The position numbers and the translations under genes are program-made. From contig JAHABC010000001.1 of assembly GCA_018376535.1 (NCBI GenBank), forward strand, positions 186,066 through 250,065: a stretch of DNA of 64,000 nt, given 5' to 3'. The notes under the pieces were generated by a model. The model worked only from the letters and a program-made list of their open reading frames with translations, made no database searches and had not been told where the DNA came from. Positions 39,947 through 60,477 of the stretch are shown here, piece after piece; the first letter of the stretch is position 1, and every line of letters begins with the position of its first letter. Source of the DNA: Ruminococcus sp. (lineage in GTDB: Bacteria > Bacillota > Clostridia > Oscillospirales > Ruminococcaceae).

Positions 39947-39962
39947 AAAAGACCACTTCCTT

Positions 39963-42900: not shown

Positions 42901-45900
42901 TAGTATGTAATACCCATATCATTGAACTTATTATCACCGATTATAGCCTTTGGTATGGATTTTTCTATGATATTTATAGTCCTATTTTTAGGTTGTTTGT
43001 ATGTAATAGGTACATAAACAGCTCCAGCCTTTAAAATTCCGACTATAGAGTAAATCTGTTCAAAAGATTTTGGAAGTTCTACTAGAACTCTGTCGCCTAT
43101 AGTAACGCCATCTTGTATTAGTTGATTAGCTACCTTATTAGAACACTCATCAAGTTGCCTATATGTATAAGAATTTCCATTGGTTACAACTGCTACGTTA
43201 TTTGGATTTTCTAAGACATTCTTATTAAAGCCAGTAAGTAGAGTAACTGGAGTATACTCAATAGTTGTCATATTAGCCTTATCGTGAGCCTCTACTTGAT
43301 ATGATGGTCTTAAATCTATTAAAGTTTGATTAAAGAACTCTGGATTTTCAATAGCCTTATCTACTAAAGAAGTATATACATCAAACATAGCACTTACGAC
43401 ATTATCCATGAATACGCCATCAAGGGTATCCCAAGATAGAACTATGTCTTTATCCTCATAGAAAATTTGATGGTCTATACAAACTTGTGGTGTAGATGAT
43501 ATCAAACTATTTGAAGATTTTAAGAAGATAGCATCATTGTCTGAGATATCTTTATTTAAATCATCAATACCGATAGCACTAGTAAATACTACAGTATACA
43601 TTCTATCTTCGTTGAAGTGTTTTCTTAACTCACCAACGAACTCTGTAGCAGAGTACTCTGTATGAGATATACTATTCATGATAGTACTTTGAATATCCAA
43701 AGCATTTTTAGATACAGTTGTATCCTTTCTATGAACATCTATTAAAGCTAGTTTAGTGAAGTCACCAATTATCTTTTGAACATCTTTGTTAATATTTTCT
43801 CTGTTGAAAACTGTCATCATTATAGCAAATGAAGAACCTCCTCCAAATGCAGATAACACTTCAGCATACAACGTAAACAACGCAGATGATGGAGTTAATC
43901 CATACTTAGCACAATTTTGAGTAAACTTCTTCCATTGCTTTGGATTGATATTCTTTCTTCTTCTAACGAACTTATGTTTATTATCCACAAATTCCGAACT
44001 CTTAAATGGTAGTTCAGGGGATTTAGGAAAATCTTCTATTTTAGATAACCAATATTTTTTGTCTACATCATGTTTAGCCTTAATATCACTGGAATTATTT
44101 AAGTAGTTAAGATAATCTTTGTAAGTAATAGTTAGAGGTTCTAATATTTCACCATTGTACAACTTGCCCATATCTTTCCAGAAGATATATAAACTCATAG
44201 CATCGGCAATCATGAAGTCTATGGAGAAGTGTATTCTGTAGTTGATATCATCTAACTTAGTTATAGCAACTTTAAACATAGGTTTATCTATAGGTAGAAT
44301 TTCATAAGACATAGTAGTTCTTATGTTATCAAGATGTTTTTGCATATCACTAATAGATTTATAATCATATACCACTACTGTAGAATACTCATCTTTAACA
44401 ATATACTGTTTAGCGTCCTTGTTCATGCGACATCTAAGCATATCGTGACGTTGTTCCAAGCACTTTAGAGTATGTTTAAACTTTTCGATATCTAAGTTAG
44501 GCATATCTAACTCAAAGTAAGTACAACACGCATTATTAGATAACAACATATTCTTATTATCTCTACCAGCCCAGTAAGCATATTGAATATCGTTTAAGTC
44601 GAACATATCGTATCTATGTTGTTCGTCTATTGTAACTTGATTAACTTGCTTATCAGCAGAATTACTTACAGTTAAACCTTTTAACAACTCTTTCCAACCA
44701 GATACAGTACAGTTATTAAAGAAATCATTTAGATTTATTTCAACATTGAAATGTTTTTTAATATCGCCTACTATCTTAACGCCGTTTAAGGAACTCAAAC
44801 CTAAAGTTAGTAGATTAGTATTTTCATCAATATCAGATTTATCAATACCTAAATGATATACTAATAAGTTTACAATATATTCCGATATCTTTTCGTCAGT
44901 AAGTTCCAAACTACTATTAGAAGTTTCTTCAACTTCGTTTATAACTGGAGTTGCATAACTAACCTTTTCATATAGATTGTGTATATAAGGTATCTTTTTA
45001 GTATCAAAAGCGTAGTTAGGAATATCGCAAGTTTGAGCGTTAAAAGATTTATAATAACCTCTCATATTGAAAGGAATAGCATATAAAAACATTGATGATA
45101 AGATTTCAGCAATCTTATAATCAGCAGAAGTATCTTTAGATGCTGAATATATACAATCGGCGTTACCGTTGGATATTCTTCCAATAAGACCACTTAAAAT
45201 AGGCATTGCACCAACTTCTAAGAATAAGTATTCCGATAGGTTTCCTAAATTGAGTACGCTATCTAGGAAACGAACTTCTGAAACTATATGTTGTTTCCAG
45301 TAATCAGCAGTTGTAAATAGAGTCGTTTCTGCCTTAGATGTAACGTTTGAAATAATATTCAACTTTGGCTTTGAATATGTTACTGTCTTAGCCACTTCAA
45401 AGAAGTCATTAGATGCATCTTGCATAAATGGTGTATGGAATGGTCTAGTAGTATTCAAGATAGTATGTTTTATATCTTTAGCATTTAGTATGCCATCTAT
45501 TTCTAAAATAGATTTTTCACTTCCTGCAATGACTGTCTGTTGCTGACTATTCGACAATGATATATATACATCATTATAAGGCTTAATGATATCTTTAATA
45601 CATTCTTTATCGGTGAATATAGCCATCATTTTGCCAAATATAGATTTTTCTTGTATAGCTTTACCTCTTGTAACTACGAGTTTCATGGCATCTTCAAGAG
45701 AGAATACTCCCGATATACAAGCCGAAACGTATTCGCCTATACTATGACCAAATACTATACTTGGATTGATTCCATACTTTTGATACATATACGCTAATGA
45801 ATATTCTACTGAAAATATCGCAGGTTGAGTATATACAGTTTGTGATAAGTCATACTTTTCGGAAAATACTAAATCTATTAGACTACCTCCAGTAAGTTGA

Positions 45901-47651
45901 TTATAATACTTATCACACATATCGAAGGCTTGTTTAAAGTAAGGATTTTTATAAAAATCCTTGCACATATTGTTATATTGTGAGCCTTGACCAGTAAATG
46001 TAAATACAATCTTCTTTTTAGATAGTCCCTTTTGTGTGAATATGTTGCTATCCATTTGACCAGAAATAGCCTTGTTTAATAGACTTTTTAAATCATCAAG
46101 ATTTTTAGCCATAATAAGAGTTCTAACCTCTAATATGGCTCTGGTTACATTTTGCGTATATGATAGATTAGTTAAGTTTATATCTTTGCAAGTTTCAACG
46201 TAAGCTAGGAACTTCTTCATCTGTTCAATAAGAGCGTTCTCAGTTACTGCCGAAAACATAAATGGATATACTGGCATATCTTGAGTAGTAACAGTATCTT
46301 TGTTATACTCCTCAAGAACTATATGAACGTTAGTTCCAGAAAGTCCAAACGAACTAACACCTGCAACCCTATTTTTACCATTAGATTTATTCCAATCCAT
46401 TAAGTTTTGAGCAACCTTAACAGATATAGCGTTCCAATTAACATACTCCGATGGTACGTTATAGTTTATACTTTTAACAATCTTTTTGTGTTCAAGCATA
46501 AGAGCAGTTTTTATCACACTAGCAATACCAGAAGCAGGTTCTAAGTGACCGATACTAGCCTTTAATGAACCTATATATAAAGGTTCGGTTCTATTAGAAC
46601 CTATTACGTTAGATATCGATTTTATTTCAATAGGGTCGCCTAGAGCAGTTCCTGTACCATGAGTTTCAATGTAGTCTATATCGTTAGGAGTAATACCACT
46701 CTTAATCCAAGCAGATTTCAAAAGTTCTTCTTGAGCAAATCCATTAGGTGCAGTTAGACTAGTACTAGCACCATCATGATTAATATAGCTACCCTTGATT
46801 ACACAATGTATACTATCATTATCGGCAGTGGCTTTGGATAGATTTTTCAATAGTATAGCACAACAACCTTCGCCTCTAACAGTACCATTAGCGAACTTAT
46901 CAAAACTTTTTAGTTCGCAAGTTTTGGATAGTATGTTCAATGCGGATAGCTTCTTAGTAGTTTCAGGTGAAAACATTATATTAACACCACAAACTATAGC
47001 CATTTCACAATCGTTATCTCTTAGCGATTTTATAGCTTGATTTATAGCACTCGCTGATGCTGAACAAGCAGTATCTATAGTTAAAGCTGGACCATGAAAA
47101 CCAAAAAAGTAAGATATTCTACCAGATATAAACGATACGTTCATACCAGTAACATCAATATCATGTTCATTTCTAGTTATGTTTTCGTTTAAGAAGTCTG
47201 TTTGAGCGACACCACAAAATACGCCTATTTTTTTACCTTTCAATTCTGTAGGAGAGTATCCTGCATTTTCAAGAACTTCCCAACAAACTTTTAGAACCAT
47301 TCTCTGTTGAGGGTCAATATAAGATGCCTCTTTAGGAGGAATTTTAAACAATCTACTGTCAAATTCTTCAATATCTTCAGTTAAAAAACCTGCCTTTTGC
47401 AAGTATGGATTTTTTAAAAGTTCATCTTTATCATACTCATTCCATCTATTTTCTGGGACGTTTATAATGTCATCTTGACCACTTTCAAGAGATTGCCAAA
47501 AATCTTGAGTATTTTTTATACCATTAGGTAACCTACAAGCCATTCCTATGATGGCTGTAGGTTCATTAGATATAGTTTTTTCTGATAAAAGTTTTTTTAA
47601 TCTTTGAATTTCAAGCAAAGCTTTTTTCATTAAATCTTTATTTTCAGACAT
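39963..47651 (-). CDS. Hybrid PKS-NRPS megasynthase: KS-AT-ACP-Cy-A(Cys)-PCP-Cy
   Basis: KS domain: DTACSAS, HGTGT, GHLEPASG. AT domain: GQGSQ, GHSIGE, and an RPFH malonyl-type motif. ACP: LGLSSL. Cy1: FDLNDIQYAYWAGR and DFMIADAMS (DxxxxDxxS). A domain: YIIYTSGSTGNPKGV, FDLSVYD, GGATEASIWS and LSGDWIP, which are Cys-type signatures. Other A-domain motifs are NTGDYGKY and GRKDGQIKINGYRIEIGEI. PCP: FGVSSVD. Cy2: LTPLQKAYLLGR and DCILLDGWS. A GGAGGT RBS is present. The start abuts the FAAL gene stop. Confidence 0.85.
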   Translation of the reverse strand: MSENKDLMKKALLEIQRLKKLLSEKTISNEPTAIIGMACRLPNGIKNTQDFWQSLESGQDDIINVPENRWNEYDKDELLKNPYLQKAGFLTEDIEEFDSRLFKIPPKEASYIDPQQRMVLKVCWEVLENAGYSPTELKGKKIGVFCGVAQTDFLNENITRNEHDIDVTGMNVSFISGRISYFFGFHGPALTIDTACSASASAINQAIKSLRDNDCEMAIVCGVNIMFSPETTKKLSALNILSKTCELKSFDKFANGTVRGEGCCAILLKNLSKATADNDSIHCVIKGSYINHDGASTSLTAPNGFAQEELLKSAWIKSGITPNDIDYIETHGTGTALGDPIEIKSISNVIGSNRTEPLYIGSLKASIGHLEPASGIASVIKTALMLEHKKIVKSINYNVPSEYVNWNAISVKVAQNLMDWNKSNGKNRVAGVSSFGLSGTNVHIVLEEYNKDTVTTQDMPVYPFMFSAVTENALIEQMKKFLAYVETCKDINLTNLSYTQNVTRAILEVRTLIMAKNLDDLKSLLNKAISGQMDSNIFTQKGLSKKKIVFTFTGQGSQYNNMCKDFYKNPYFKQAFDMCDKYYNQLTGGSLIDLVFSEKYDLSQTVYTQPAIFSVEYSLAYMYQKYGINPSIVFGHSIGEYVSACISGVFSLEDAMKLVVTRGKAIQEKSIFGKMMAIFTDKECIKDIIKPYNDVYISLSNSQQQTVIAGSEKSILEIDGILNAKDIKHTILNTTRPFHTPFMQDASNDFFEVAKTVTYSKPKLNIISNVTSKAETTLFTTADYWKQHIVSEVRFLDSVLNLGNLSEYLFLEVGAMPILSGLIGRISNGNADCIYSASKDTSADYKIAEILSSMFLYAIPFNMRGYYKSFNAQTCDIPNYAFDTKKIPYIHNLYEKVSYATPVINEVEETSNSSLELTDEKISEYIVNLLVYHLGIDKSDIDENTNLLTLGLSSLNGVKIVGDIKKHFNVEINLNDFFNNCTVSGWKELLKGLTVSNSADKQVNQVTIDEQHRYDMFDLNDIQYAYWAGRDNKNMLLSNNACCTYFELDMPNLDIEKFKHTLKCLEQRHDMLRCRMNKDAKQYIVKDEYSTVVVYDYKSISDMQKHLDNIRTTMSYEILPIDKPMFKVAITKLDDINYRIHFSIDFMIADAMSLYIFWKDMGKLYNGEILEPLTITYKDYLNYLNNSSDIKAKHDVDKKYWLSKIEDFPKSPELPFKSSEFVDNKHKFVRRRKNINPKQWKKFTQNCAKYGLTPSSALFTLYAEVLSAFGGGSSFAIMMTVFNRENINKDVQKIIGDFTKLALIDVHRKDTTVSKNALDIQSTIMNSISHTEYSATEFVGELRKHFNEDRMYTVVFTSAIGIDDLNKDISDNDAIFLKSSNSLISSTPQVCIDHQIFYEDKDIVLSWDTLDGVFMDNVVSAMFDVYTSLVDKAIENPEFFNQTLIDLRPSYQVEAHDKANMTTIEYTPVTLLTGFNKNVLENPNNVAVVTNGNSYTYRQLDECSNKVANQLIQDGVTIGDRVLVELPKSFEQIYSIVGILKAGAVYVPITYKQPKNRTINIIEKSIPKAIIGDNKFNDMGITYYSIIDFESSSSDGTNLPTISASDGAYIIYTSGSTGNPKGVYIAHGSAMNTIDDVTRKYNITSNDSTIAISSLSFDLSVYDVFGMLSVGGKIVIPTEQEKIDPKSQYQLVKHNDVTVWNTVPAIMDLYLDFLNKKSLTSESIRKVILSGDWIPLNLLDKLYKALPNAELTSMGGATEASIWSNYFNVDTLNPEWNSIPYGYPLANQRFYILDDFNRRCPDYVSGKLHIAGDGLAECYYNEPSLTENAFYVHKSIGERLYNTGDYGKYISDGVIEFLGRKDGQIKINGYRIEIGEIISAIKKCGIDSKAIIMPVGNSRKKIVAFLIQKDTIDQELLKQELGKYLPKYFIPDKIICIEDLPVTANGKSDMKKLHQIYEDIKNSSKASNTSNENVNPILKKIREILDISEITEDDSFSAFGVSSVDMIRLADELESIYGERPSISDMISYKSVSELINFFDGKVANDNNNFVQQQDNSQPDDDDNFVYTTTELQENPLEKYSNQGIELYLEDGKLKFKASKGKMTPQLKAELIANKQSLIEYLTVKAEQEKHDAEYFKENSFLLTPLQKAYLLGRSNYYELGGTSAHYYTEIEWNNLDLVKLEKSINKVIRYNDILQTVVFSNGTQAVLENMPYYKVKVSKVSNEELLQVRSTWSEHKYEIGKWPMFDIIVSDLGNDNYIVHFSFDCILLDGWSANMMISEIFEVYEGRTIKKPQLSFKDYVTNESIFLEDKEYHKKAIEYWENSVQSLPNAPELKYKVDFSQVETPHFKRKRFVLDKNKTHLLNEKIKKYGLTASAVICTAYMSVLSKYSNTHDFTLNLTLFNRLPLHNDVWNILGDFTNITLIPYFESKNSTFMDSLTSTKNYLVEAIEHRTYNGLELLKHFSDDNILKAVMPVVFTSMIFGNLESSSNENDIFDSVKEVYSISQTPQVSLDHQALVRNNELVLIWDYVSELFDAEIIDNMFNDYINFINTIANSDNWEIL

Positions 47652-47653
47652 AA

Positions 47654-49756
47654 CTATATATTACCTCCAAGTTCTTGATTAAGTAAGTCTGCGATATCAT
47701 CTTCAGATAGTTCATCATTAGAGTTATCAAAGTACTTGTTATATACATATTCGGAGAAAGTATCGATAGTGTTATAGTTAAATATATCTACTATTTCAAG
47801 ATTTATTTCAAGACCTTCATTAATTTCACTTATTATATCCACTGAAGATTTAGAGTTTATACCCATCTGCATAAAAGGTATGGATTTATCTATATTAGAC
47901 TTATCAACACTTAAATGACTGGATATTAAAGTTAATACTAAGTCTACCATTTCATCTTTATTAGATGGCTTAACAAAGTCAATCTTAACAGATTTAACGT
48001 TATCGGAAACGTATAAAATATCCTTTAGAGTGTTATTTAGATATGCTTTTTTAGTAGCCAATCTCATAATCTTGCCACTGTAGGTTCTAAGAATACTATT
48101 CTCAGCTACAAAGATAACTTTTCCTACCGATAGCTTAAACGATTGTAATATATTATTTCTTATCTTATTAGCAATGTTAGATAACTCCTCTACAGATACA
48201 TCTTCAGCAACCTCTTGAATTAGAGTTAAACTATCTTCATCATCGCTAGAGTTTGAAAATACACAACTTGCATAGTTTAAGCGATTATCACTCTCATAGG
48301 AAACTTGTTCAATATCTTGAGGGTAATAGTTTACACCTCTAATGATAATAATTTCCTTAAATCTACCAGTGATAAATAACGCACCTTTTTCACTAAGGAA
48401 ACCAGCATCACCAGTATGTAAGATAACTTCTCCAGAAGTTTCATCTTTAACAAAGGAGTCTAAAGTATCAGCTTCATTCTTCCAATAGCCCTCAGCAACC
48501 GATTCGCCCAATACACAAACTTCACCAATTTCAAAAGGTTTAAGCTGATTGCCTTGGTTATCTAAAACCATAACTTTATCACCAATATCAATAGGAGAAC
48601 CGTTCCCTACTAGATACGTTACATTACTTTCATTTTCATCTACATAGTTTAGAAAACTATCTAAAACACCAGAAGATATTACAGATACTCTATTTTCGGA
48701 TAGTTTTTTAGTATCCAATTTAATCCATTCAGTATCTTCACCTGTGTAGTTGGCACTTACACAAAGAGTAGCCTCTGCAAGACCATAAGCACCCATAACA
48801 GCACTATCACGCAAACCCAGTTTATTAGCACACTTTATAAACTTTACAAGAGTATTAAATCTAACAGGTTCAGAACCGCTAATTATTCTAACTAAGGAAT
48901 CTAATCTAATACCATAAGCATTACTGTCATCATTTTCAATCTTTTCAAGAATGTTAGCTAAAATCTCGAAGGCAAAGTTAGGAGCAACTGTAAATGTAGC
49001 CTTATAATCGGATATAACTTTTAACCATATAATAGGATTTTTCTTAAAAGATGTTGGCGACATAAATATATCTTGACAACCGGAAGATATACTAGTTAAA
49101 AGTCCAGCAATAAGTCCCATATCGTGATAGTATGGCAACCAACTAACCCATCTACTAGTTTCATTAAGTCCTAGTTTTGCCATTATGTTCTGTAGATTGT
49201 TTATCAACGATAGATTAGTTACCATAACGCCTTTAGGCTCTTTTGTAGAACCAGATGTATATTGTAACAAAGCGATATCATTTATAACGCATAGTTCCTC
49301 ATTAGACTTTCCATCAGTTTGAGCGTATACTGGAGTGCTATTAAACTCTGCATTACTAGTAGCAGAAATTTTTTCTAAAATATCATTATTAGTTAAAATA
49401 CAAGATGCCTCACAATTATTGATGATACCTTTCCACTTTTTAAACTCACCATCAAATAGAGGCATATCCACTGGCACTATTATAGCACCTATTAAGTTAC
49501 AAGCCATAATACCAACCACAAGTTCTAAGTTGGCATGATACATAAGTATACATCTATCATTTTGTTTAACATTGTTCTCTAATAGATAGTTCGCAAAAGA
49601 CTCAGATTGTAAGTATAGTTGACTATATGTAATAGATGACTTATTTCCATCATCATCAATAAAGATATATGCTTCAACATCTGGAGTTATATCTGCACGA
49701 TATTTTAATATTTCTCCAATACTTTTAAAACTATCGATTTGAAAGTTACCCATCAT
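47654..49756 (-). CDS. Fatty acyl-AMP ligase with a C-terminal ACP (starter-unit loading didomain)
   Basis: 700 aa. The FAAL-type adenylation region carries LQYTSGSTKEPKGV and GDAGF. The C-terminal carrier reads FMQMGINSKSSVDII. The position directly upstream of the KS module is typical of lipopeptide/hybrid initiation. Confidence 0.8.
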   Translation of the reverse strand: MMGNFQIDSFKSIGEILKYRADITPDVEAYIFIDDDGNKSSITYSQLYLQSESFANYLLENNVKQNDRCILMYHANLELVVGIMACNLIGAIIVPVDMPLFDGEFKKWKGIINNCEASCILTNNDILEKISATSNAEFNSTPVYAQTDGKSNEELCVINDIALLQYTSGSTKEPKGVMVTNLSLINNLQNIMAKLGLNETSRWVSWLPYYHDMGLIAGLLTSISSGCQDIFMSPTSFKKNPIIWLKVISDYKATFTVAPNFAFEILANILEKIENDDSNAYGIRLDSLVRIISGSEPVRFNTLVKFIKCANKLGLRDSAVMGAYGLAEATLCVSANYTGEDTEWIKLDTKKLSENRVSVISSGVLDSFLNYVDENESNVTYLVGNGSPIDIGDKVMVLDNQGNQLKPFEIGEVCVLGESVAEGYWKNEADTLDSFVKDETSGEVILHTGDAGFLSEKGALFITGRFKEIIIIRGVNYYPQDIEQVSYESDNRLNYASCVFSNSSDDEDSLTLIQEVAEDVSVEELSNIANKIRNNILQSFKLSVGKVIFVAENSILRTYSGKIMRLATKKAYLNNTLKDILYVSDNVKSVKIDFVKPSNKDEMVDLVLTLISSHLSVDKSNIDKSIPFMQMGINSKSSVDIISEINEGLEINLEIVDIFNYNTIDTFSEYVYNKYFDNSNDELSEDDIADLLNQELGGNI

Positions 49757-49772
49757 AATTCAATCCTTTCTT

Positions 49773-49790
49773 AGTTAGCTAGTGCTAACT
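49773..49790. promoter_or_regulatory. Operator-like palindrome AGTTAGC-tagt-GCTAACT abutting the FAAL RBS
   Basis: A perfect 7-4-7 inverted repeat 17 bp upstream of the FAAL start codon. It is one of five related copies in the cluster. Coordinates are accurate to about 2 nt. Confidence 0.5.
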
Positions 49791-49838
49791 TTTTCACAAA
49801 AAAAATTAAGTTAAAATATTTAAATCGGTTTAATTTCA

Positions 49839-49855
49839 GTTAGCAACTGCTAACC
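49839..49855. promoter_or_regulatory. Operator-like palindrome AGTTAGC-aact-GCTAACC (distal FAAL site)
   Basis: 7-4-7 inverted repeat with one mismatch, 66 bp upstream of the first copy. Confidence 0.45.
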
Positions 49856-50153
49856 AAAAATCTAAAAATCGACTTGAATACGTACTTTAATTAAATTAAA
49901 AGCTACGTTATCAAGTTCGGGATAATTATAGCACAATCCAATTGAAAAGTCAACATAATTATTAGCAACTGTATATTAAACCAAACAGATTATACTATTA
50001 TGTTAAATATGTACAAATATTAGTCATGGTTTACATCTTGACAGTTTTAAATCGTTGTGATACACTATATTCGGTTAAAATTTAGCTTTTATAAGCTACT
50101 ATACACATATTAGCCATACTAGAATATTTTTCTAGCATTATTTTTTAAATACT

Positions 50154-50171
50154 AGTTAGCCAATACTAACT
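50154..50171. promoter_or_regulatory. Operator-like palindrome AGTTAGC-caat-ACTAACT (distal site for the ABC operon)
   Basis: 7-4-7 inverted repeat with one mismatch, 67 bp upstream of the proximal site. Confidence 0.45.
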
Positions 50172-50220
50172 AAATACAATATATTAATAACTATTTTTTA
50201 TAGATGTTATTGTATCTTGC

Positions 50221-50238
50221 AGTTAGCTAAAGCTAACT
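50221..50238. promoter_or_regulatory. Operator-like palindrome AGTTAGC-taaa-GCTAACT abutting the RBS of the ABC ATPase gene
   Basis: A perfect 7-4-7 inverted repeat immediately 5' of the AAAGGAGGAG RBS. Confidence 0.5.
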
Positions 50239-50255
50239 TAAAGGAGGAGTATATT

Positions 50256-50954
50256 TTGTATCTTAGTGTACAAAACTTAAAAAAGAGTTATGGCAATGGT
50301 TCTAGCCAAGTACAAGTTTTGAAGGGTATAAATACAGAGATTGAAAAAGGTCAAATGTGTGTTATACTAGGACCAAGTGGTTCAGGAAAATCCACTTTTT
50401 TAAACCTTATAGGTGGTCTTGATACCATAGACAGCGGAAATGTAATAATAGATGGCTTAAATATAGCGGGTATGGATAGTAATAAACTATCTAAGTACAG
50501 ACGTGACTATCTAGGATTTATATTTCAATTCTACAACTTAGTTCCAAATTTGACTATATATGAAAATATTCAAGTTTGCGAAAATCTAACTCAAAAAGCC
50601 TTGGATATAAACGAACTCTTAGATATATTAGGTCTAACTGAACATAAAAATAAGTTTCCATCACAACTATCTGGAGGTCAACAACAAAGATGTGCTATTG
50701 CTAGAGCTTTAGTTAAAAATCCTAAGTTACTACTATGCGATGAGCCTACTGGTGCTTTGGATTCTAAAACATCTAAAGAAATACTAGTCCTATTGGAAAA
50801 GGTTAATAAGATGTATAATACTACTATGCTAATAGTTACTCACAATACGGCTATTAAAGATATGGTTCATAAGGTTATCAAAATTAAAGACGGTCTTATT
50901 AGCAAAGATTATATAAATGATAATATTATATCGGCAAATGACATAGAATGGTAA
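50256..50954 (+). CDS. ABC transporter ATP-binding protein (MacB/FtsE-like, pairs with the FtsX-type permease)
   Basis: It has Walker A GPSGSGKST, signature LSGGQQQR and Walker B LLLCDEPTGALD. The TTG start at 50256 sits 6 nt after the AAAGGAGGAG RBS. The tabulated ORF start at 50217 is upstream of the RBS. Confidence 0.85.
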   Translation: MYLSVQNLKKSYGNGSSQVQVLKGINTEIEKGQMCVILGPSGSGKSTFLNLIGGLDTIDSGNVIIDGLNIAGMDSNKLSKYRRDYLGFIFQFYNLVPNLTIYENIQVCENLTQKALDINELLDILGLTEHKNKFPSQLSGGQQQRCAIARALVKNPKLLLCDEPTGALDSKTSKEILVLLEKVNKMYNTTMLIVTHNTAIKDMVHKVIKIKDGLISKDYINDNIISANDIEW

Positions 50955-50969
50955 CTTGAGGTATACATT

Positions 50970-53900
50970 ATGGTTTTGAATAAAAGAATTTTAAGAAATA
51001 TTAAGAAAAATTTCTTTCGATGGTTTGCACTTTTCTTATTGGTAGTTCTTGGAATTTATATGGTACTAAGTTTAATCGCAGCTGCCGAAACTGTAACTTA
51101 TGGCGTAAATACCTATGCCGATGAACAAAATCTTGAAGATGGTGAGTTTACAGTATTCGTTCCATTAACTAATGATAATTTAGAGTATATATCCGATAAG
51201 GGCTACTCCCTTGAGGAAAACTTCTACATAGATTTCGCTATGAACGACGATAGAAACTCTACACTTAGAATATTCAAAAATAGAGAAAATATAAACGTTC
51301 AAATAGCTAATGATGGCTCTATTGCATCAAAAGATAATGAGATACTATTAGAACATCACTACGCCGAACTACACGGATACAATATCGGTGATACTATATC
51401 TATTGCTGATTTGGATTTCAAAGTAGTAGGTGTTGGTGCTTCTCCAGACTATGACGACTGTAGACAAAATCTATCCGACGCAGGTACTGACCACAACGTC
51501 TTTGGTATGGCTTTTGTTACACCTAATGCCTACGATAAACTAAAAGCTACCGATAAGTATAAAAATACTGAAGAATATCTTTATAGTTACAAACTCGGAA
51601 AAGATAACTCCGATGACGACCTTAAAGAACTTCTTCAAGCTTTAGACTTCGATTTGACAGATATCAAAGATAAGTACGTCCGTGAATTGATTGACGATGT
51701 GGAAGATGAAAAAAATGACATCATTGATGGTGTAAATAAACTTCAAGACGCTAGTTATGAATTAAAAGACAATCTAAAAAAATTCTCCGATGGTACTAAA
51801 GAACTCAGCGACGGTGTTCAAACATTTAATGATAAAACTTCCGAATTTTTTGACGGTATAAATCAACTTTATGATGCTCTTAATACACTATCTTCTAACA
51901 ATTCTAAGTTACTAGATGGTGCTAATTCGGTATATGATGCACTATTTTCTATGGTAGAAAGTTCTCTTGCTGAAAATGATATAAAAGTAAATCTAACTAT
52001 AGATAACTATAAATCCGAATTAAATAAGGTTATGAACAATCCAAGTAAGATATCCGACAATACTAGAAAACAGATTAACGATTTAATATCTTCCTTAGAT
52101 AGTTATAATCAATTTTACACTGGCTTAAAAGAATATACTTCTGGTGTGGATAGCTTAACTGCTGGAGCATCTAGCTTGAGCAACGGAACTACTCAATTAA
52201 GTGATGGTGTTCATGTGTTATCAAGTGGATTGGAACGCATAGTAGCTAATAACAGTAGTATAAACAATGGAACATCAACCTTATTAGATAGTCTATTGGG
52301 AATGGTTCAAGGACAATTAAATCAATATGGTTTTGACGTTCAACTAACAAAAGATAACTATTCTGCAACTTTACAACAGATATATGACCAACTTTCAACA
52401 GTATCTCCTGAAAGTGCCGAAAGTATTATGAACTTAAAATCTTCCATTGATGGCGTTGTAACATTAAATAATGGTATAGCATCATATACTGGTGGAGTAT
52501 CCGAAGTATACAACGGAGTTAATAGTTTAAGTAGTGGTGTATCGGAATTAAGTAATGGTTGCAATACTCTCCTAGAGGGTTTACAGACTTTAAGTACATA
52601 CAATAGTAGTCTAGTGAGTGGTTCTCAAGATGTTTTTAACGCTCTATTGAGTACTGCACAAACTCAATTAAAAAGTGGTGGTATAGATGTTAATCTTACT
52701 ATAGATAACTATTCTTCCCAATTGAGCAACATTGCAAATAACATCGATACTTATACTAGCGATGCTTTAAAATCACAATTGACATCTGCAATTGAACAAC
52801 TAGACAGTTACGGAGAGTTCTACAATGGTATAGTAGATTACACCGACGCAGTAAACTCTATATATGATGGTGCTAAAACTCTAAATGACAGTTGCAAAGA
52901 TATTACTAATGCTATCGATGAGTTAGCAGACGGTTCTAATGAAATAGATGAAAACTCTATTAAACTATACGATGGCTCTGTTGAGTTCGCCGATGCTATT
53001 GATACTCTAGCTGACAATATATACGACATAGTGGACGAAGTTTTCACTATCGACATAGATAACTTAACTATGTTCCTAACTGCTGAAGATAACATTAGAA
53101 TAAAAGCCTCCATTGATGACGTAGCTATCAATAAGAGTGGTGGTCTAGTTGGAGGAGTAATATTAATAATCTTATTTGCATATGTAATATCGGTATTCAT
53201 AATACACGAAATTAATGACGAAAGTGCTGTAATAGGTGCATTATACTCCATGGGTGTAAGTAAAAAGACTCTTTTAATGCACTATATAACTCTACCTATG
53301 ATTATAGCCTTTGTAGGAGGTCTATTAGGAACTATTTTAGCATTTACTCCATTAGGTGTAGGAAATCAAATAAAGAGTGCTGTTACATACTACTCATTAC
53401 CAAACTTAGAGTATGTATATCCAATATATGCTTTAATCTATGGTATAGTGTTACCTCCAGTAATAGCCTTGATTGTAAACGTAATAGTAATAAATAGTGC
53501 ATTATCTCAAACACCTTTGAGTTTATTAAGAAAATCCAATAAGAATAAAATTCGTACTATAAACTTGAGTACTGGAAAGTTAAGTTTTACCAATCAATTT
53601 AGAGTTCGTCAGTTCGTTAGAGAACTTAGAACTAGTATAACACTATTCTTTGGAATGTTAGTAGCTCTACTACTATTGATGTTAGGTCTAACTTGTTATT
53701 TTTCAATAAATAACTATCAAGTTCAAAATAAACAAGATTTAAACTATAAATATCTATACTCCTTGAAGTACGAACTAGACAAGGAAGATATTCCTACAAA
53801 TGCCGTACAATGCTACTCCGAAAGCGTTAATAAAGAGATTTTAGGTCAAGATATGAAAGTAACTCTAATGGGAATAGATGGCAATAGCAAATATTTCAAC

Positions 53901-54629
53901 TTTGATGTCCCAGATAAAAAGAATACTGTCGTAGTAGGTAGTTCAATGGCTATAAAGTTCGGTTTAAAAGTTGGCGACGTTGTATACTTCAACGATGAAC
54001 TAAACGACAGAGTTTACTCCTTTGAAGTTGCTGATATAGTTCAATATTCAATTGGTTTGTATATGTTCATGGATATTGACAGAATGAGAGATTTATACAA
54101 TCAAGAGGACGATTATTTCAACGTATTAATATCCGATGAGGAACTAAATATCGATATAAACAGAGTGTACTCCACTATTAAGGATACCGATATTTTAAGT
54201 ATATCTGCTATATTTAAAGAAAGTATGAGTGGTATGATAACTATGTTATTAGTAATATCGGTAGTTATATTTGTAGTGGTAATGTATCTAATGATAAACA
54301 TTATGCTAGATAAATCGGCTAATAACATATCACTGATAAAAATATTCGGATATAATGACAAGGAAGTTAAAAACCTCTACCTTGATGGTAACTTCTTTGT
54401 AATATTAATATCATCATTGATAAACGTACCTATATCAAAGATGTGTATGAATGCTTTGTGGCCATCAATGGTATCCAATATGCAATGTGGCTTTGATACT
54501 TCAATACCTGCGTATATGTACATAGTAGTATTCCTAGTTATATTCATATGTTACTTTGTAGTAAGCCTTCTATTGATGCGTAAGCTAAGAGGAATATCCC
54601 CTGCTGAAGTTCTAAAGAACAGAGAATAA
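50970..54629 (+). CDS. Giant FtsX/MacB-family ABC permease (1219 aa) with two FtsX 4-TM modules and an approximately 700-aa ectodomain carrying three tandem, approximately 115-aa YhgE/Pip-like repeats
   Basis: An N-terminal TM segment is followed by an ectodomain with repeats (VNLTIDNYKSELNKV / VQLTKDNYSATLQQI / VNLTIDNYSSQLSNI). The first FtsX block spans about aa 745-870 and the second lies at the C-terminus. The gene is coupled to the upstream ATPase by a 15-nt gap. Confidence 0.75.
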   Translation: MVLNKRILRNIKKNFFRWFALFLLVVLGIYMVLSLIAAAETVTYGVNTYADEQNLEDGEFTVFVPLTNDNLEYISDKGYSLEENFYIDFAMNDDRNSTLRIFKNRENINVQIANDGSIASKDNEILLEHHYAELHGYNIGDTISIADLDFKVVGVGASPDYDDCRQNLSDAGTDHNVFGMAFVTPNAYDKLKATDKYKNTEEYLYSYKLGKDNSDDDLKELLQALDFDLTDIKDKYVRELIDDVEDEKNDIIDGVNKLQDASYELKDNLKKFSDGTKELSDGVQTFNDKTSEFFDGINQLYDALNTLSSNNSKLLDGANSVYDALFSMVESSLAENDIKVNLTIDNYKSELNKVMNNPSKISDNTRKQINDLISSLDSYNQFYTGLKEYTSGVDSLTAGASSLSNGTTQLSDGVHVLSSGLERIVANNSSINNGTSTLLDSLLGMVQGQLNQYGFDVQLTKDNYSATLQQIYDQLSTVSPESAESIMNLKSSIDGVVTLNNGIASYTGGVSEVYNGVNSLSSGVSELSNGCNTLLEGLQTLSTYNSSLVSGSQDVFNALLSTAQTQLKSGGIDVNLTIDNYSSQLSNIANNIDTYTSDALKSQLTSAIEQLDSYGEFYNGIVDYTDAVNSIYDGAKTLNDSCKDITNAIDELADGSNEIDENSIKLYDGSVEFADAIDTLADNIYDIVDEVFTIDIDNLTMFLTAEDNIRIKASIDDVAINKSGGLVGGVILIILFAYVISVFIIHEINDESAVIGALYSMGVSKKTLLMHYITLPMIIAFVGGLLGTILAFTPLGVGNQIKSAVTYYSLPNLEYVYPIYALIYGIVLPPVIALIVNVIVINSALSQTPLSLLRKSNKNKIRTINLSTGKLSFTNQFRVRQFVRELRTSITLFFGMLVALLLLMLGLTCYFSINNYQVQNKQDLNYKYLYSLKYELDKEDIPTNAVQCYSESVNKEILGQDMKVTLMGIDGNSKYFNFDVPDKKNTVVVGSSMAIKFGLKVGDVVYFNDELNDRVYSFEVADIVQYSIGLYMFMDIDRMRDLYNQEDDYFNVLISDEELNIDINRVYSTIKDTDILSISAIFKESMSGMITMLLVISVVIFVVVMYLMINIMLDKSANNISLIKIFGYNDKEVKNLYLDGNFFVILISSLINVPISKMCMNALWPSMVSNMQCGFDTSIPAYMYIVVFLVIFICYFVVSLLLMRKLRGISPAEVLKNRE

Positions 54630-56540: not shown

Positions 56541-56549
56541 ATTAAATTA

Positions 56550-58322: not shown

Positions 58323-58384
58323 TTTAAAAATGCTCCTTTCAAGATAATATATTTATTATAATATAAAAATATTATACACTACCA

Positions 58385-59773
58385 TTAAAATATTTTAGTC
58401 AAGGTTAGAACCTTATCGCAAGTTAAGTTCATGAACTCTCTATCGTGGGATACTATTATTATAATATGTCCCTCACTAGCGAGTTTTTTTACTATCTTAC
58501 AGACTTCAATCATGTGTTTATAATCCAAGCCACTGGTAGGCTCATCAAATATAAGAACTCTTTTTTTAGATAGCAATGCTAAAGCAATAGCTAACCTTTG
58601 TTTTTGCCCACCAGATAAAGCCATTGGGTGACTTTCTTTAAAAGGTAACAAATCGCATTGAGATAGAATATCATCAATGTTAATATTTTCGTCATCAACA
58701 GATTGCAAACATTCATTTTCAACGCTATCGTAAAAAAGTTGATGGTTTACATCTTGCATTACACAAAAACTTACTTTCTGTCGATTTTTATGATTAAGTA
58801 CAACACTATCTAAAGTAATAGTTCCAGATTTTTGTTTTATAAGTCCACATAGACAGCGTATCAAAGTAGATTTACCTGAGCCATTCTGTCCAGTGATTGC
58901 TAAAACTTCTCCTTGATTGACACTAAAAGAGATATCTTTTAAAATAGTAGCATCTTTTTTGTAGCCATAACAAAGATTTTCCACCTTAAAACTTTGATTA
59001 CTATTAAATGTCGCTTTTGGAATGTTTAAACTTTCATATAGTAAGGTACGCAATCCAAGACTAATTCTGTAGTCATTAGATATCTTTTTAAAACTTTCGC
59101 CCGAATACTCCGAAACGATTTTACCATCTTTTAGATATATAACTCTATCAACCAAATCCATTAAGAAGTATAATCTATGTTCAGCAATTATGATAGTATT
59201 TCCATTACTTTTTAAGAACTCTATCTGTTTTCTTAAATTTTCTATAGCTTTTTCATCTAAGTTAGCAGTAGGTTCGTCTAAGACGTAGATATCTGGGTTC
59301 ATAGTATATATACTTGCAAAAGCGATGGTTTGCTTTTCACCTCCGGACAGTGAAAAGATATTCTTATCTATTAGATGCTTTATGTTTAAACTCTTGATAG
59401 TTCTATCTAAGCGATAGTTTATATCTATTGGTGATACCCCCGCATTTTCTAAACCAAAGACTATCTCATCGGTAGTATTTAGATTAAAAAACTGGCTCTT
59501 AGGATTTTGAAACACTGAACCTACTTTTTTAGAAATTTCATACAGTTCAGTATTAGCGACTACCATATCTTCAATATATACTTTACCATCTAAAAAGCAA
59601 TCGTTAATAAAGTGAGGAATAAGTCCATTGATAGTCTTAGTTATAGTAGTCTTTCCACAACCACTTGCACCACATAACAGAACACATTCACCACTTTTAA
59701 TATTAAGGTCTATATTATATAAATCCATGCGATTTTTATTGTAACCAAAAGATAGATTATCTATTTTAATCAT
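58385..59773 (-). CDS. ECF-transporter energising ATPase, fused duplicated EcfA-EcfA' type
   Basis: 462 aa with two complete NBDs (GASGCGKTT...LSGGEKQ...VLDEPTANLD and GQNGSGKST...LSGGQKQR...IFDEPTSGLD). Confidence 0.8.
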   Translation of the reverse strand: MIKIDNLSFGYNKNRMDLYNIDLNIKSGECVLLCGASGCGKTTITKTINGLIPHFINDCFLDGKVYIEDMVVANTELYEISKKVGSVFQNPKSQFFNLNTTDEIVFGLENAGVSPIDINYRLDRTIKSLNIKHLIDKNIFSLSGGEKQTIAFASIYTMNPDIYVLDEPTANLDEKAIENLRKQIEFLKSNGNTIIIAEHRLYFLMDLVDRVIYLKDGKIVSEYSGESFKKISNDYRISLGLRTLLYESLNIPKATFNSNQSFKVENLCYGYKKDATILKDISFSVNQGEVLAITGQNGSGKSTLIRCLCGLIKQKSGTITLDSVVLNHKNRQKVSFCVMQDVNHQLFYDSVENECLQSVDDENINIDDILSQCDLLPFKESHPMALSGGQKQRLAIALALLSKKRVLIFDEPTSGLDYKHMIEVCKIVKKLASEGHIIIIVSHDREFMNLTCDKVLTLTKIF

Positions 59774-59788
59774 ATATAAATAACTCCT

Positions 59789-60475: not shown

Positions 60476-60477
60476 AA

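What the first reader, a model, noticed from the sequence alone, without database searches (positions are those of the whole stretch)
49757..50255. Four copies of an AGTTAGC-N4-GCTAACT palindrome organise the 460-bp divergent promoter region of the cluster; a fifth related copy precedes the ECF genes
The copies lie at about 49773, 49839, 50154 and 50221. Each divergent operon has a proximal perfect copy placed immediately 5' of its RBS and a distal one-mismatch copy 65-67 bp further upstream. This mirror-symmetric arrangement is typical of a dimeric repressor or activator that loops DNA or binds cooperatively. A fifth copy, GGTTAGC-AGA-GCTAACC at 61116-61132, sits in front of the S-component gene. 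All three units therefore probably form one regulon. The half-site GGTTAGC resembles the half-site of the DtxR/IdeR iron box (TTAGGTTAGCCTAACCTAA), but the spacing is 3-4 nt wider. Metal-dependent control is therefore a hypothesis only. No regulator gene is present between 39 and 64 kb.
Basis: seen in the sequence. Interest (0 to 1): 0.75.

Follow-up and report, generated by a model that had tools for sequence, protein, structure and literature searches.

The report
Repressor boxes controlling a metallophore gene cluster
The repeated 18-bp palindrome is real and is most likely the DNA binding site of a metal-sensing repressor encoded elsewhere in the genome, which switches off a siderophore-like gene cluster and its transporters in a common uncultured human-gut Ruminococcus.

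Summary
AGTTAGC-N4-GCTAACT lies at 49773, 49838, 50154 and 50221, and GGTTAGC-AGA-GCTAACC lies at 61116. That is 4 core matches against 0.02 expected. Two more copies flank a consensus promoter about 7.7 kb beyond the window end, in front of the remaining NRPS operon.

The genes form a hybrid FAAL/PKS/NRPS cluster. It has a thiazolinyl imide reductase, a MacB-type exporter, an MptD-type ECF importer and an ABC pair. This resembles pyochelin and yersiniabactin clusters.

The same box recurs at matching places in related clusters from at least seven other organisms (35-57% GC). In one Ruminococcus MAG it lies over the start site of a feoAB iron-uptake operon. A control of 1.43 Mb has no core match.

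The core GTTAG/CTAAC never varies. Positions 1, 4 and 7 vary without compensation, and some copies lie outside or across transcript starts. This points to a DNA operator, not an RNA hairpin.

No regulator gene lies within about 81 kb.

The best reading is an unlinked metal-responsive repressor, probably of the DtxR family. The regulator's identity and the metal dependence are inferred, not shown.

The parts
49773..49790 (.). Box w1. Perfect AGTTAGC-N4-GCTAACT, proximal to the FAAL-PKS/NRPS-TE operon (- strand). It ends 4 nt before the RBS.
   Evidence: Half-sites invariant in 11 strains; 3 of 4 spacer positions vary.
49838..49855 (.). Box w2. Distal box of the FAAL operon, centred 65 bp from w1. 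The outermost C is a T (perfect palindrome) in 6 of 11 strains.
49925..49953 (-). Predicted sigma-70 promoter of the FAAL operon: TTGACT-17-TATAAT with an upstream TG, 11 of 12 matches. The predicted start is near 49918, so w2 and w1 are centred near +71 and +136.
   Evidence: Invariant in 11 strains. This is a consensus match only; the start site is not mapped.
50038..50066 (+). Predicted sigma-70 promoter of the ABC exporter operon: TTGACA-17-TACACT with an upstream TG, 10 of 12 matches. The predicted start is near 50073, so w3 and w4 are centred near +89 and +156.
   Evidence: Invariant in 11 strains. Consensus match only.
50154..50171 (.). Box w3. Distal box of the ABC ATPase/FtsX operon: AGTTAGC-caat-ACTAACT. 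The same A variant in the gene-proximal arm is found at the orthologous ABC-operon boxes of L103 and L110.
50221..50238 (.). Box w4. Perfect palindrome, proximal to the ABC ATPase gene (TTG 50256). It ends 3 nt before AGGAGG.
   Evidence: The gene start 50256 is confirmed by called genes.
61116..61132 (.). Box w5. GGTTAGC-AGA-GCTAACC, the only copy with a 3-nt spacer. It sits inside a 10+3+10 palindrome, 24 nt after the NRPS stop and 41 nt before the mptD-type S-component start. Its right arm occupies the -35 position relative to a TATAAT at 61094-61099 (- strand).
   Evidence: invariant in 12 sequences. The scan reports no strong promoter. The orthologous mptD boxes in L112 and L119 have N4.
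44495..44512 (.). Candidate intragenic box AGTTAGG-cata-TCTAACT inside the PKS-NRPS gene. It differs from the consensus only at the tolerant innermost positions.
   Evidence: 0.08 core matches expected per shuffled window. Function uncertain.
41183..41200 (.). Candidate intragenic box AGTTAGA-acgt-CCTAACA inside the PKS-NRPS gene.
   Evidence: Function uncertain.
39158..49756 (-). Regulated operon 1: FAAL-ACP (47654-49756), PKS-NRPS KS-AT-ACP-C-A-T-C (39963-47651) and thioesterase (39158-39994).
50256..54629 (+). Regulated operon 2: MacB-type ABC ATPase (50256-50954) and a 1219-aa FtsX-type permease (50970-54629).
54774..61074 (-). Regulated unit 3: MptD-family ECF S-component (60478-61074), EcfT (59789-60475), fused EcfA-A' (58385-59773) and two half-ABC transporters of 590 and 588 aa (56550-58322, 54774-56540).
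   Evidence: (TIGR02185 above cutoff).
61156..64000 (-). 3' part of regulated operon 4: an NRPS of 1805 aa (TubC_N-C-A-MT-T-TE). The operon continues beyond the window with the thiazolinyl imide reductase, a Sacchrp_dh-like gene and a 950-aa NRPS. Its promoter carries boxes w6 and w7 (L108 6987-7004 and 7090-7107, about 7.7 kb past the window end).

Best explanation
The palindromes are DNA operators. The core is TTAGC-N4-GCTAA inside (A/G)GTTAGC-N4-GCTAAC(T/C). Each probably binds one dimer of a repressor encoded elsewhere in the genome.

The repressor is most likely a metal-loaded (iron-type) regulator of the DtxR/IdeR family. When the metal is plentiful it would occupy every box. The boxes lie over or just beside start sites, or between the start site and the RBS, usually two per promoter. 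Binding would block initiation or elongation of four transcription units:
- the FAAL-PKS/NRPS-TE operon;
- the MacB-type exporter operon;
- the NRPS/thiazolinyl-reductase operon;
- possibly the MptD-ECF/ABC importer unit.

When the metal is scarce the repressor would leave and the whole lipo-thiazoline metallophore pathway would be expressed together.

Shown here: the boxes, their restriction to the cluster, their conservation across species at orthologous places, their position relative to promoter-like sequences, the lack of RNA covariation, and the absence of a linked regulator.

Inferred: repression, the metal signal, the DtxR-family identity, and any looping between paired boxes.

My sub-confidences: DNA operator of a dimeric protein about 0.85; metal-responsive about 0.65; DtxR/IdeR family about 0.45. 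The overall figure of 0.6 is for 'operator of an unlinked metal-responsive repressor'.
For: 1. Non-random and cluster-specific. There are 4 matches against 0.02 expected. Six N4 core matches were seen against 0.08 expected. There are 7 intergenic copies in the cluster and none in 46 kb of flanking DNA of the same genome.

2. Conserved across species. Loci found through the rare Sacchrp_dh-like gene (11 clusters in 5.8e9 proteins) or through the FAAL carry the box before the ABC-exporter operon (L103, L110), before the Sdh/reductase operon (L105, L110, L111, L112, L118, L119), before mptD (L112, L119), before a TE gene (L104) and before an AraC-ABC operon (L110). The core has 13 hits in 188 kb of related loci and 0 in 1.43 Mb of control loci.

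3. DNA, not RNA. G2, T3, A5 and G6 are invariant in 36 half-sites. The innermost pair is broken in 8 of 18 sites, and pairing is no better than in shuffles (88.9% against 87.8%, 127 of 500).

4. Position relative to promoters:
- w6 lies 3 nt upstream of the -35 of a 12-of-12 consensus promoter, so outside that transcript.
- The boxes of L112 and L119 start 5 nt after a TTGACA-17-TATAAA -10 (by eye) and span its start site, as does the box of L242.
- The boxes of L103 and L110 start 12 and 10 nt after the -10.

5. Metal link:
- The thiazolinyl imide reductase passes the curated TIGR01761 cutoff and the S-component passes the MptD-family cutoff.
- In L242 the box AGTTAGAaataACTAACT lies 6 nt after TTGACA-17-TAAACT of an operon encoding an HMA-like protein, FeoA, FeoB and a FeoC-like protein.
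- The analogous mptABC/mptDEF plus sid island of M. avium paratuberculosis is under Zur control (PMC4298942).

6. DtxR geometry. The IdeR one-dimer consensus is TTAGGNNNNCCTAA. Its minimum requirement is T at quintet position 3 and C at position 1 or 2; position 1 is tolerant and A4/A5 changes are only weakening (PMC8464063). In the boxes here the equivalents of C2 and T3 never vary. Variation falls on quintet position 1, on position 4 and on the flank.

7. No regulator gene lies in the window or its extensions. This is how Fur relates to the pch and ybt clusters (my own knowledge).
Against: - No DtxR-family gene, or any candidate regulator, could be tied to the box. The source genome could not be scanned.
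- The invariant G just outside the quintet (position 2) is not explained by the published IdeR contacts.
- No full 19-bp two-dimer box occurs.
- w5 has a 3-nt spacer that a rigid dimer should dislike.
- Several boxes (w1, w4, L104:835, L105, L111) sit right at the RBS with no recognisable promoter close by. This is also what an RNA-level element would look like.
- The promoters are consensus matches only.
- The feoAB link rests on one locus and a box with 2 mismatches.
- The mycobacterial TetR repressor BkaR binds a very similar palindrome, so the sequence alone does not fix the protein family.
- The exact 18-mer also occurs in many unrelated phage contexts.
Confidence: 0.6

Rival explanations
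1. The boxes are operators for a dimeric helix-turn-helix repressor of another family (TetR-like, a small FeoC/ArsR-like winged helix, Xre, MarR or GntR). It would respond to a non-metal signal such as the cluster's own product or a precursor. The DNA mechanism would be the same, but the protein and the signal would differ.
For: - The TetR repressor BkaR binds AGTTAAT-N4-ATTAACT and GGTTAAT-N4-ACTAAC, the same 7-4-7 layout with a GTTA...TAAC frame (PMC3920632).
- Related FAAL/PKS-NRPS clusters L240 and L242 carry TetR genes next to their ABC pairs.
- The feo operon of L242 encodes an 86-aa HTH_5/FeoC-like protein that could regulate itself.
- L185 shows that some phage protein uses the same palindrome in an array.
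Against: - No such gene lies in or near the cluster in this genome or in L103-L119.
- The TetR gene of L240 is preceded by its own, different long palindrome.
- The presence of the box on a feoAB promoter and on a thiazoline-siderophore-type cluster points to a metal signal.
- ArsR-type logic, in which metal releases the repressor, is the wrong way round for uptake genes (my own knowledge).
Confidence: 0.25
2. The palindromes act as RNA hairpins in the 5' leaders. A 7-bp stem next to the RBS would stabilise or process the mRNA, or bind a translational regulator.
For: - With the central promoters, all four copies of the divergent region are transcribed.
- Many copies end 3-13 nt before an RBS.
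- w5 has a different loop size but a longer stem.
- The leaders fold better than shuffles, with z of -4.5 and -2.9.
- Spacers vary freely, as loops do.
Against: - There is no covariation. The loop-closing pair is broken in 8 of 18 sites and position 4 in 3 of 18. Pairing equals the shuffled controls.
- w6 lies upstream of its promoter.
- The L242 box and the L112 and L119 boxes (by eye) straddle the start site, so the 5' arm would be partly untranscribed.
- The folding z-scores are expected for any repeated palindrome.
- No Rfam family matches. The best hit is emrB-Lactobacillus at 22 bits against a gathering score of 60.8, E = 2.2.
Confidence: 0.07
3. The copies are a repeated genomic element or a chance feature of AT-rich DNA (REP-like palindromes or terminator stems) with no regulatory role.
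For: - The exact 18-mer is found more than 120 times in viral contigs, often as a terminator stem (GAGC-AGTTAGC-TTTT-GCTAACT-GCTC-TTTT) or inside genes.
- On the + strand w1 is followed by TTTTT.
Against: - Shuffles give 0.02-0.08 expected copies.
- There are no copies in 46 kb of neighbouring DNA.
- The box is conserved at orthologous positions in genomes of 35-57% GC whose flanks are unrelated.
- The terminator scan finds none in the sense direction.
Confidence: 0.03

Closest known systems
IdeR/DtxR iron box, especially the one-dimer 14-bp form TTAGGNNNNCCTAA (Saccharopolyspora erythraea IdeR, PMC8464063)
   Same: - Inverted TTAG(G/C) quintets separated by 4 bp.
- The quintet positions that IdeR needs (C2, T3) are the invariant ones here, and the tolerated ones (position 1, A4) are the variable ones.
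- The targets are a siderophore-type NRPS cluster and metal transporters.
- The regulator is not encoded in the cluster.
   Different: - The innermost base is C/G swapped (TTAGC...GCTAA).
- An extra invariant G flanks each quintet.
- No 19-bp two-dimer box is present at any site, and boxes come in separated pairs instead.
- The hosts are Clostridia (Oscillospiraceae, Lachnospiraceae), not Actinobacteria.
- The protein has not been identified.
Fur boxes of the pyochelin (pch) and yersiniabactin (ybt) clusters, with AraC-type PchR/YbtA as a second tier (my own knowledge)
   Same: - The cluster has thiazoline-forming NRPS/PKS genes, a thiazolinyl imide reductase and YbtPQ-like ABC half-transporters.
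- There is one box per operon for a global, unlinked metal repressor.
- One relative (L110) has an AraC-type gene, itself preceded by a box.
   Different: - The box sequence is not a Fur box. A scan for TGATAAT-N-ATTATCA showed no enrichment.
- No AraC gene is present in this genome's cluster.
Zinc-responsive island of Mycobacterium avium subsp. paratuberculosis (mptABC, mptDEF, sid NRPS; Zur boxes; PMC4298942)
   Same: - It combines an MptD-type ECF transporter, an IrtAB-like ABC pair and an NRPS siderophore-like operon.
- Several boxes of an unlinked metal repressor are present, including one in a 5' UTR.
   Different: - Zur boxes (TGAAAATGATTTTCA type) are unrelated in sequence.
- The responsive metal here is unknown. 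The feoAB link suggests iron.
BkaR (TetR family) operator of mycobacteria (PMC3920632)
   Same: A 7-4-7 palindrome, (A/G)GTTA(A/G)T-N4-A(C/T)TAAC(T/C), which differs from the present box at one or two inner positions of each half-site.
   Different: - In BkaR sites position 6 is mostly A, whereas here G is invariant.
- BkaR is encoded next to its targets and controls keto-acid catabolism.
- No TetR gene is linked to the box here.
GalR OE/OI-type paired operators flanking a promoter (my own knowledge)
   Same: At the NRPS operon, w6 and w7 are centred near -47 and +55. They are 103 bp (9.8 helical turns) apart and bracket a consensus promoter. The inner boxes of the divergent region are 316 bp (30.1 turns) apart and enclose both promoters.
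   Different: Looping is purely conjectural here. The 65- and 67-bp pairs are not in helical phase.

Membership tests
DtxR/IdeR-family operator (iron box) | Two inverted CCTAA-type quintets separated by 4 bp (one-dimer consensus TTAGGNNNNCCTAA) | tested here: met
   All 18 aligned N4 sites read TTAGn-N4-nCTAA apart from T4->A in three half-sites. The definition is from PMC8464063. Exception: w5 has N3.
DtxR/IdeR-family operator (iron box) | Each quintet has T at position 3 and C at position 1 or 2 | tested here: met
   The equivalents (A5 and G6 of each half-site, and their complements) are invariant in 18 of 18 sites and both arms.
DtxR/IdeR-family operator (iron box) | Classical 19-bp box of four quintets that binds two dimers on opposite faces | tested here: not met
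   No site has flanking quintets at a 5-bp offset (flanks listed). Only the one-dimer form fits.
DtxR/IdeR-family operator (iron box) | A DtxR-family protein in the same genome that binds the box with a divalent metal as co-repressor | not testable with these tools
   No such gene lies in the ~81 kb seen.
DtxR/IdeR-family operator (iron box) | The regulon contains metal-acquisition genes | tested here: met
   The box is found on a feoAB promoter in L242. The regulated genes include a thiazolinyl-reductase-containing NRPS cluster and an MptD ECF transporter.
Fur box | A 7-1-7 inverted repeat, TGATAAT-N-ATTATCA, at the regulated promoters | tested here: not met
   There were 21 matches at up to 3 mismatches against 18.3 expected. 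None is convincing at the cluster promoters.
Structured cis-regulatory RNA (riboswitch, leader or protein-binding hairpin) | Base pairs maintained by compensatory change; match to a curated RNA family | tested here: not met
   Pairing is 88.9% against 87.8% in shuffles, and the inner pair is broken in 8 of 18 sites. No Rfam hit comes near a gathering score.
Intrinsic terminator | A G+C-rich stem followed by a U-run in the direction of transcription | tested here: not met
   No terminator-like site was found in the sense direction at w1-w5. The only hit, at w7, is on the antisense strand.
TetR-family operator with a cluster-situated regulator | A TetR gene adjacent to, and usually divergent from, the regulated genes | tested here: not met
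   No TetR_N domain was found in the window or in L081-L119. The TetR genes of L240 and L242 belong to more distant clusters, and the L240 gene has its own different palindrome.

The most novel reading that the evidence does not exclude
Gut and rumen Clostridia (Oscillospiraceae and Lachnospiraceae) may have an iron- or metal-responsive regulon built entirely from one-dimer DtxR-type boxes, TTAGC-N4-GCTAA. The boxes would be used in separated pairs that bracket or follow promoters and may be bridged by looping. In a highly prevalent uncultured human-gut Ruminococcus this regulon would control a previously undescribed lipo-thiazoline metallophore pathway that is imported through an MptD-type ECF transporter. 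This would be the first case where the 'half' iron box is the rule and not the exception. It would also give a direct handle on metal competition by an abundant commensal.
Probability: 0.35. Interest if true: 0.65.

Novelty: new member of a known kind. Interest (0 to 1): 0.5.

Why it matters
- The boxes mark out a complete co-regulated unit in one of the commonest uncultured Ruminococcus lineages of the human gut. The unit covers biosynthesis, export and two importers of a siderophore-like natural product.
- They predict the inducing condition, metal limitation, which is what is needed to elicit the product.
- The box is a searchable signature. A PWM scan of Oscillospiraceae and Lachnospiraceae genomes should return the rest of the regulon, and probably the regulator.
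- If the regulator is a DtxR homologue, the regulon would show that the one-dimer iron box recently described for IdeR is used systematically outside Actinobacteria.

Tried and rejected
- The GTDB genome scan with the FAAL protein returned only relatives at 45% identity or less, none with the box.
- The FAAL homologue P0002 lies in an unrelated context.
The metagenome scan with the Sacchrp_dh alignment solved this (L108).
- No cis-encoded regulator was found. All plausible ORFs of the window, of L108 and of the related loci were scanned. Only an AraC gene (L110), an Xre-AbrB gene 7 kb away (L104) and TetR genes (L240, L242) turned up, and none is consistently linked.
- Full-text searches for the box sequence found no description of it. 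Searches for a clostridial DtxR regulon were unproductive.
- The MtsR paper gave no useful comparison.
It gave no frequency estimate and showed only that the palindrome also occurs in unrelated phage contexts.
- The L104 sites are weaker evidence than first thought. The orthologous positions in L116 are degenerate, and L104:384 may be held by coding constraint.
- L116 and L117 carry no box.
- The Fur-box and terminator readings were rejected.
- The last protein-homology search was not spent, because no context look-ups remained to use its results.
Full report
**1. Observation**

- w1, 49773-49790, AGTTAGCtagtGCTAACT.
- w2, 49838-49855, AGTTAGCaactGCTAACC.
- w3, 50154-50171, AGTTAGCcaatACTAACT.
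- w4, 50221-50238, AGTTAGCtaaaGCTAACT.

The fifth copy, w5, is GGTTAGCagaGCTAACC at 61116-61132.

GTTAGC-N3-4-GCTAAC occurs 4 times against 0.02 expected. The core GTTAG-N6-CTAAC occurs 6 times against 0.08 expected. The two extra core matches, at 41183 and 44495, lie inside the PKS-NRPS gene.

w1 and w4 end 3-4 nt before the ribosome-binding sites of the FAAL gene (ATG 49756, - strand) and the ABC ATPase gene. Gene callers start the ATPase gene at TTG 50256. w2 and w3 are centred 65 and 67 bp further out.

**2. What the genes are**

On the - strand:
- FAAL-ACP.
- A 2562-aa KS-AT-ACP-C-A-T-C synthetase.
- A thioesterase.

On the + strand:
- A MacB-type ABC ATPase.
- A 1219-aa FtsX permease.

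Further right, on the - strand:
- Two half-ABC transporters of 588 and 590 aa.
- A fused EcfA-A', an EcfT, and a Trep_Strep S-component that passes the NCBIfam "MptD family" cutoff.
- The 3' end of an NRPS.

Contigs carrying identical proteins show that the cluster continues beyond the window. The NRPS is 1805 aa (TubC_N-C-A-MT-T-TE). Upstream of it lie a 362-aa protein that passes the curated cutoff for thiazolinyl imide reductase (TIGR01761, 235 bits against 188.8), a 364-aa Sacchrp_dh-like protein and a 950-aa A-T NRPS.

This is the gene content of a pyochelin/yersiniabactin-type thiazoline metallophore pathway with a fatty-acyl starter. That is an inference from domain content, and the product is unknown.

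The organism is an uncultured human-gut "Ruminococcus sp." (Oscillospiraceae) of about 32% GC. It was seen in more than 400 assembly blocks.

**3. Promoters**

The best sigma-70 matches in the 499-bp region are back to back in its centre:
- TTGACT-17-TATAAT on the - strand, 49953-49925, 11 of 12 matches, with an upstream TG.
- TTGACA-17-TACACT on the + strand, 50038-50066, 10 of 12 matches, with an upstream TG.

If these are used, all four boxes lie downstream of the start sites, near +71 and +136 for the FAAL operon and near +89 and +156 for the ABC operon. These are consensus matches, not mapped starts.

**4. Two more copies beyond the window**

L108 is the same species and reaches about 7.7 kb past the window end. 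It shows:
- w6, AGTTAGGcagtGCTAACT, at 6987-7004.
- w7, AGTTAGCgtttGCTAACC, at 7090-7107.

These bracket a perfect TTGACA-17-TATAAT promoter (12 of 12 matches, upstream TG, 7008-7036) in front of the 950-aa NRPS gene. w6 ends 3 nt before the -35 element, so it is not part of that transcript. w7 lies near +48.

Upstream of w6 are an Smr-domain gene, lipoproteins, DUF4230, tsaD, a GNAT gene and polA. The left border of the cluster is a PEPCK gene.

The cluster therefore has seven intergenic boxes. There is no regulator gene inside it or within the roughly 81 kb examined. The 46 kb of non-cluster DNA has no site with 2 or fewer mismatches.

**5. Conservation in other organisms**

The Sacchrp_dh-like gene is a rare marker, with 11 clusters at E <= 1e-20 among 5.8 billion proteins. 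Loci were found through it and through FAAL homologues, not through the motif. They carry the same box at corresponding places:

- L103 (40% GC): AGTTAGCgacaACTAACT, 12 nt after the -10 of TTGAAT-17-TATAAT, before the ABC ATPase operon.
- L110 (41% GC): AGTTAGCgcggACTAACC, 10 nt after TTGACA-18-TAAAAT of the ABC ATPase/FtsX operon. GGTTAGCtacgACTAACT lies before the Sdh/reductase operon. By eye, a degenerate AGTAAGTcgcaGCTAACC lies before an AraC-ABC-ABC operon.
- L105-L107: a perfect AGTTAGCttaaGCTAACT before the Sdh gene.
- L111 (50% GC): TGTTAGTttatACTAACA before the Sdh gene.
- L112 (a Pseudobutyrivibrio MAG by its contig) and its close relative L119: AGTTAGAttttGCTAACT and ...ACTAACT. They start 5 nt after the -10 of TTGACA-17-TATAAA (by eye), before mptD, and so overlap the start site. 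GGTTAGTttaaACTAACG lies before the Sdh gene.
- L118 (48% GC): two sites.
- L104 (57% GC): GGTTAGCgataGCTTACT, 3 nt before the RBS of a TE gene.

The core motif has 13 hits in 188 kb of these loci and none in 1.43 Mb of unrelated FAAL loci. With 2 or fewer mismatches the counts are 10 in 144 kb against 4 in 1.43 Mb.

Not every relative has the box. L116 and L117 lack it, and the orthologues of the L104 sites are degenerate there.

**6. DNA site or RNA hairpin**

Eighteen N4 sites were aligned in the sense orientation. G2, T3, A5 and G6 and their partners never vary.

Counting the 7-bp helix gives:
- 88.9% paired cells against 87.8% in shuffles (127 of 500 shuffles as high).
- The loop-closing pair broken in 8 of 18 sites.
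- Position 4 broken in 3 of 18 sites, and position 1 in 3 of 18.
- Only two double-sided changes.

Both arms are therefore conserved as sequence, not as a helix.

w6 lies outside its transcript. The L242 box and the L112 and L119 boxes (by eye) span the start site.

The leaders fold better than shuffles (z of -4.5 and -2.9). Any repeated palindrome does that, so it is not informative.

Rfam gives nothing near a gathering score.

Among 11 strains the half-sites are invariant except for the outermost base of w2. Five of 16 spacer columns vary, against 18 of 460 elsewhere (odds ratio 11, p = 5e-4). This rate is above the neutral intergenic level and is unexplained.

I conclude that the element is a protein-binding DNA palindrome. 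Its positions over and downstream of start sites indicate a repressor.

**7. Which protein**

No regulator is linked to the boxes, so the regulator acts in trans.

*The feoAB lead.* L242 comes from a Ruminococcus sp. MAG (42% GC) and carries a related FAAL/PKS-NRPS cluster. There, AGTTAGAaataACTAACT lies 6 nt after the -10 of TTGACA-17-TAAACT (10 of 12 matches, upstream TG). It heads an operon encoding a 121-aa HMA-like protein, FeoA, FeoB and an 86-aa FeoC/HTH_5-like protein. The same box on a ferrous-iron uptake promoter argues for a metal-responsive global repressor.

*The geometry lead.* The IdeR-DNA structures show each subunit on one CCTAA quintet, with one dimer on quintets 1+3 and the other on 2+4. 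The authors redefine the target as the 14-bp TTAGGNNNNCCTAA. They show that one dimer binds such a half box. They also find that T3 and a C at position 1 or 2 are required, while position 1 is tolerant and A4/A5 changes only weaken binding (PMC8464063). The present box is TTAGC-N4-GCTAA. Its invariant bases are the equivalents of C2 and T3, and its variable ones are quintet position 1, position 4 and the flank.

*Against a firm assignment:*
- The invariant flanking G is not accounted for.
- No 19-bp box occurs.
- w5 has N3.
- The TetR repressor BkaR binds a near-identical layout, AGTTAAT-N4-ATTAACT (PMC3920632).
- No DtxR gene could be looked for in the genome.

A Fur box is excluded.

**8. 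Proposed mechanism**

The metal-loaded repressor binds one dimer per box. Paired boxes then act in three ways:
- They bracket the NRPS promoter at about -47 and +55, which is 103 bp or 9.8 helical turns apart.
- They follow the two divergent promoters.
- The inner pair, w2 and w3, is 316 bp (30.1 turns) apart and encloses both promoters.

Occupancy blocks initiation or elongation. Loss of the metal releases all units together. Looping or bridging between boxes is conjecture.

w5 may control the ECF/ABC importer genes from the -35 position of a weak promoter. Alternatively it may only mark the junction with the upstream NRPS operon.

**9. Comparison with known systems and novelty**

In logic this is the arrangement known from three systems:
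- Fur at the pch and ybt clusters (my own knowledge).
- IdeR at the mycobactin and other siderophore clusters.
- Zur at the mptABC/mptDEF/sid island of M. avium paratuberculosis (PMC4298942).

In each, an unlinked metal repressor has a box at every operon of a metallophore cluster. One relative, L110, has an AraC-type second-tier regulator like PchR or YbtA.

The new elements are:
- The box sequence. I found no description of it.
- Its exclusive one-dimer form and its paired layout.
- Its hosts.
- The cluster it controls.

I rate it a new member of a known kind.

**10. Open points**

- The N3 spacer of w5.
- The hypervariable spacers.
- The intragenic core matches at 41183 and 44495, and also L104:384 and L242:16376.
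- A shared extension, GCTAACC-n-TTAGA(A)TATCTATTAT, after w5 and w7.
- The lack of a recognisable promoter between terminator and box in L105 and L111.
- The occurrence of the same palindrome in phage arrays and terminator stems.

Noticed in passing
window 39158-64000 and about 8 kb beyond (L081 1-10000; L108 6987-21092): A roughly 33-kb FAAL/PKS/NRPS cluster with a thiazolinyl imide reductase, MT and TE domains, a MacB-type exporter, an MptD-type ECF importer and an IrtAB/YbtPQ-like ABC pair. It belongs to a very prevalent uncultured human-gut Ruminococcus sp. The product is unknown, and I found no description of the cluster.
   Followed up: partly
window 49780-49783, 49845-49848 (alignment A1): Among 11 strains, 5 of the 16 spacer positions of the four boxes vary, against 18 of 460 other intergenic positions (odds ratio 11, p = 5e-4). 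The centres of the palindromes look like mutational hot spots.
   Followed up: partly
window 41183-41200 and 44495-44512: Two further GTTAG-N6-CTAAC matches lie inside the PKS-NRPS coding region (0.08 expected per shuffled window). Similar intragenic matches occur at L104:384 and L242:16376.
   Followed up: no
window 61133-61152 (+ strand) and L108 7108-7127; L110 6638-6650: Boxes w5 and w7 share an almost identical 20-nt extension, GCTAACC-(n)TTAGA(A)TATCTATTAT. L110:6620 has GCTAACCtTTAGATAAC. This could be a duplicated segment or an extra recognition element.
   Followed up: no
L185 4566-4723 (viral contig IMGVR_UViG_3300031992_000100): Five (A/G)GTTAGC-N4-GCTAAC(T/C) palindromes lie 26-52 bp apart, start to start (three consecutive gaps of 26-35 bp), in a 470-bp intergenic region upstream of a TTGACA-N17-TATAAT promoter. 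This is an iteron, centromere or operator array that uses the same palindrome in a phage.
   Followed up: partly
L124, L132, L139, L173-L175, L184, L207, L227, L236 (viral contigs): A family of gut phage contigs carries AGTTAGCATATGCTAACT inside a 65-bp direct repeat near a contig end. Many other phages use GAGC-AGTTAGC-TTTT-GCTAACT-GCTC as a terminator stem.
   Followed up: no
L110 5295-6266 (- strand) and 6291-6308: An AraC-family regulator heads the ABC-pair operon of a related cluster and is itself preceded by a degenerate box. This resembles the Fur to PchR/YbtA hierarchy. A direct repeat, attttattctgcc, follows both boxes of that intergenic region.
   Followed up: partly
L242 18531-21392 (- strand): The feo operon encodes a 121-aa HMA-like protein, FeoA, FeoB and an 86-aa HTH_5/FeoC-like protein, next to a TetR-ABC-ABC operon and a related FAAL/PKS-NRPS cluster. 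The small winged-helix protein is an alternative candidate for the box-binding factor.
   Followed up: partly
L240 12190-12260: A long palindrome, TATAATAACGTTGTTATG...CATAACAACGTTATTATA, lies just upstream of the cluster-situated TetR gene. It is probably that regulator's own operator and is unrelated to the box studied here.
   Followed up: no
L118 230-540: A perfect box (315-332) lies inside what looks like a disrupted alpha/beta-hydrolase gene upstream of the Sdh operon. The intact hydrolase is present at the same place in L111.
   Followed up: no
L103 16700-16830: The roughly 150-nt leader between the box and the ABC ATPase start contains a strong hairpin, GGAAATCCGGCTAAGCCGGATTTCC, followed by GATTTAAT. 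It may be an attenuator.
   Followed up: no
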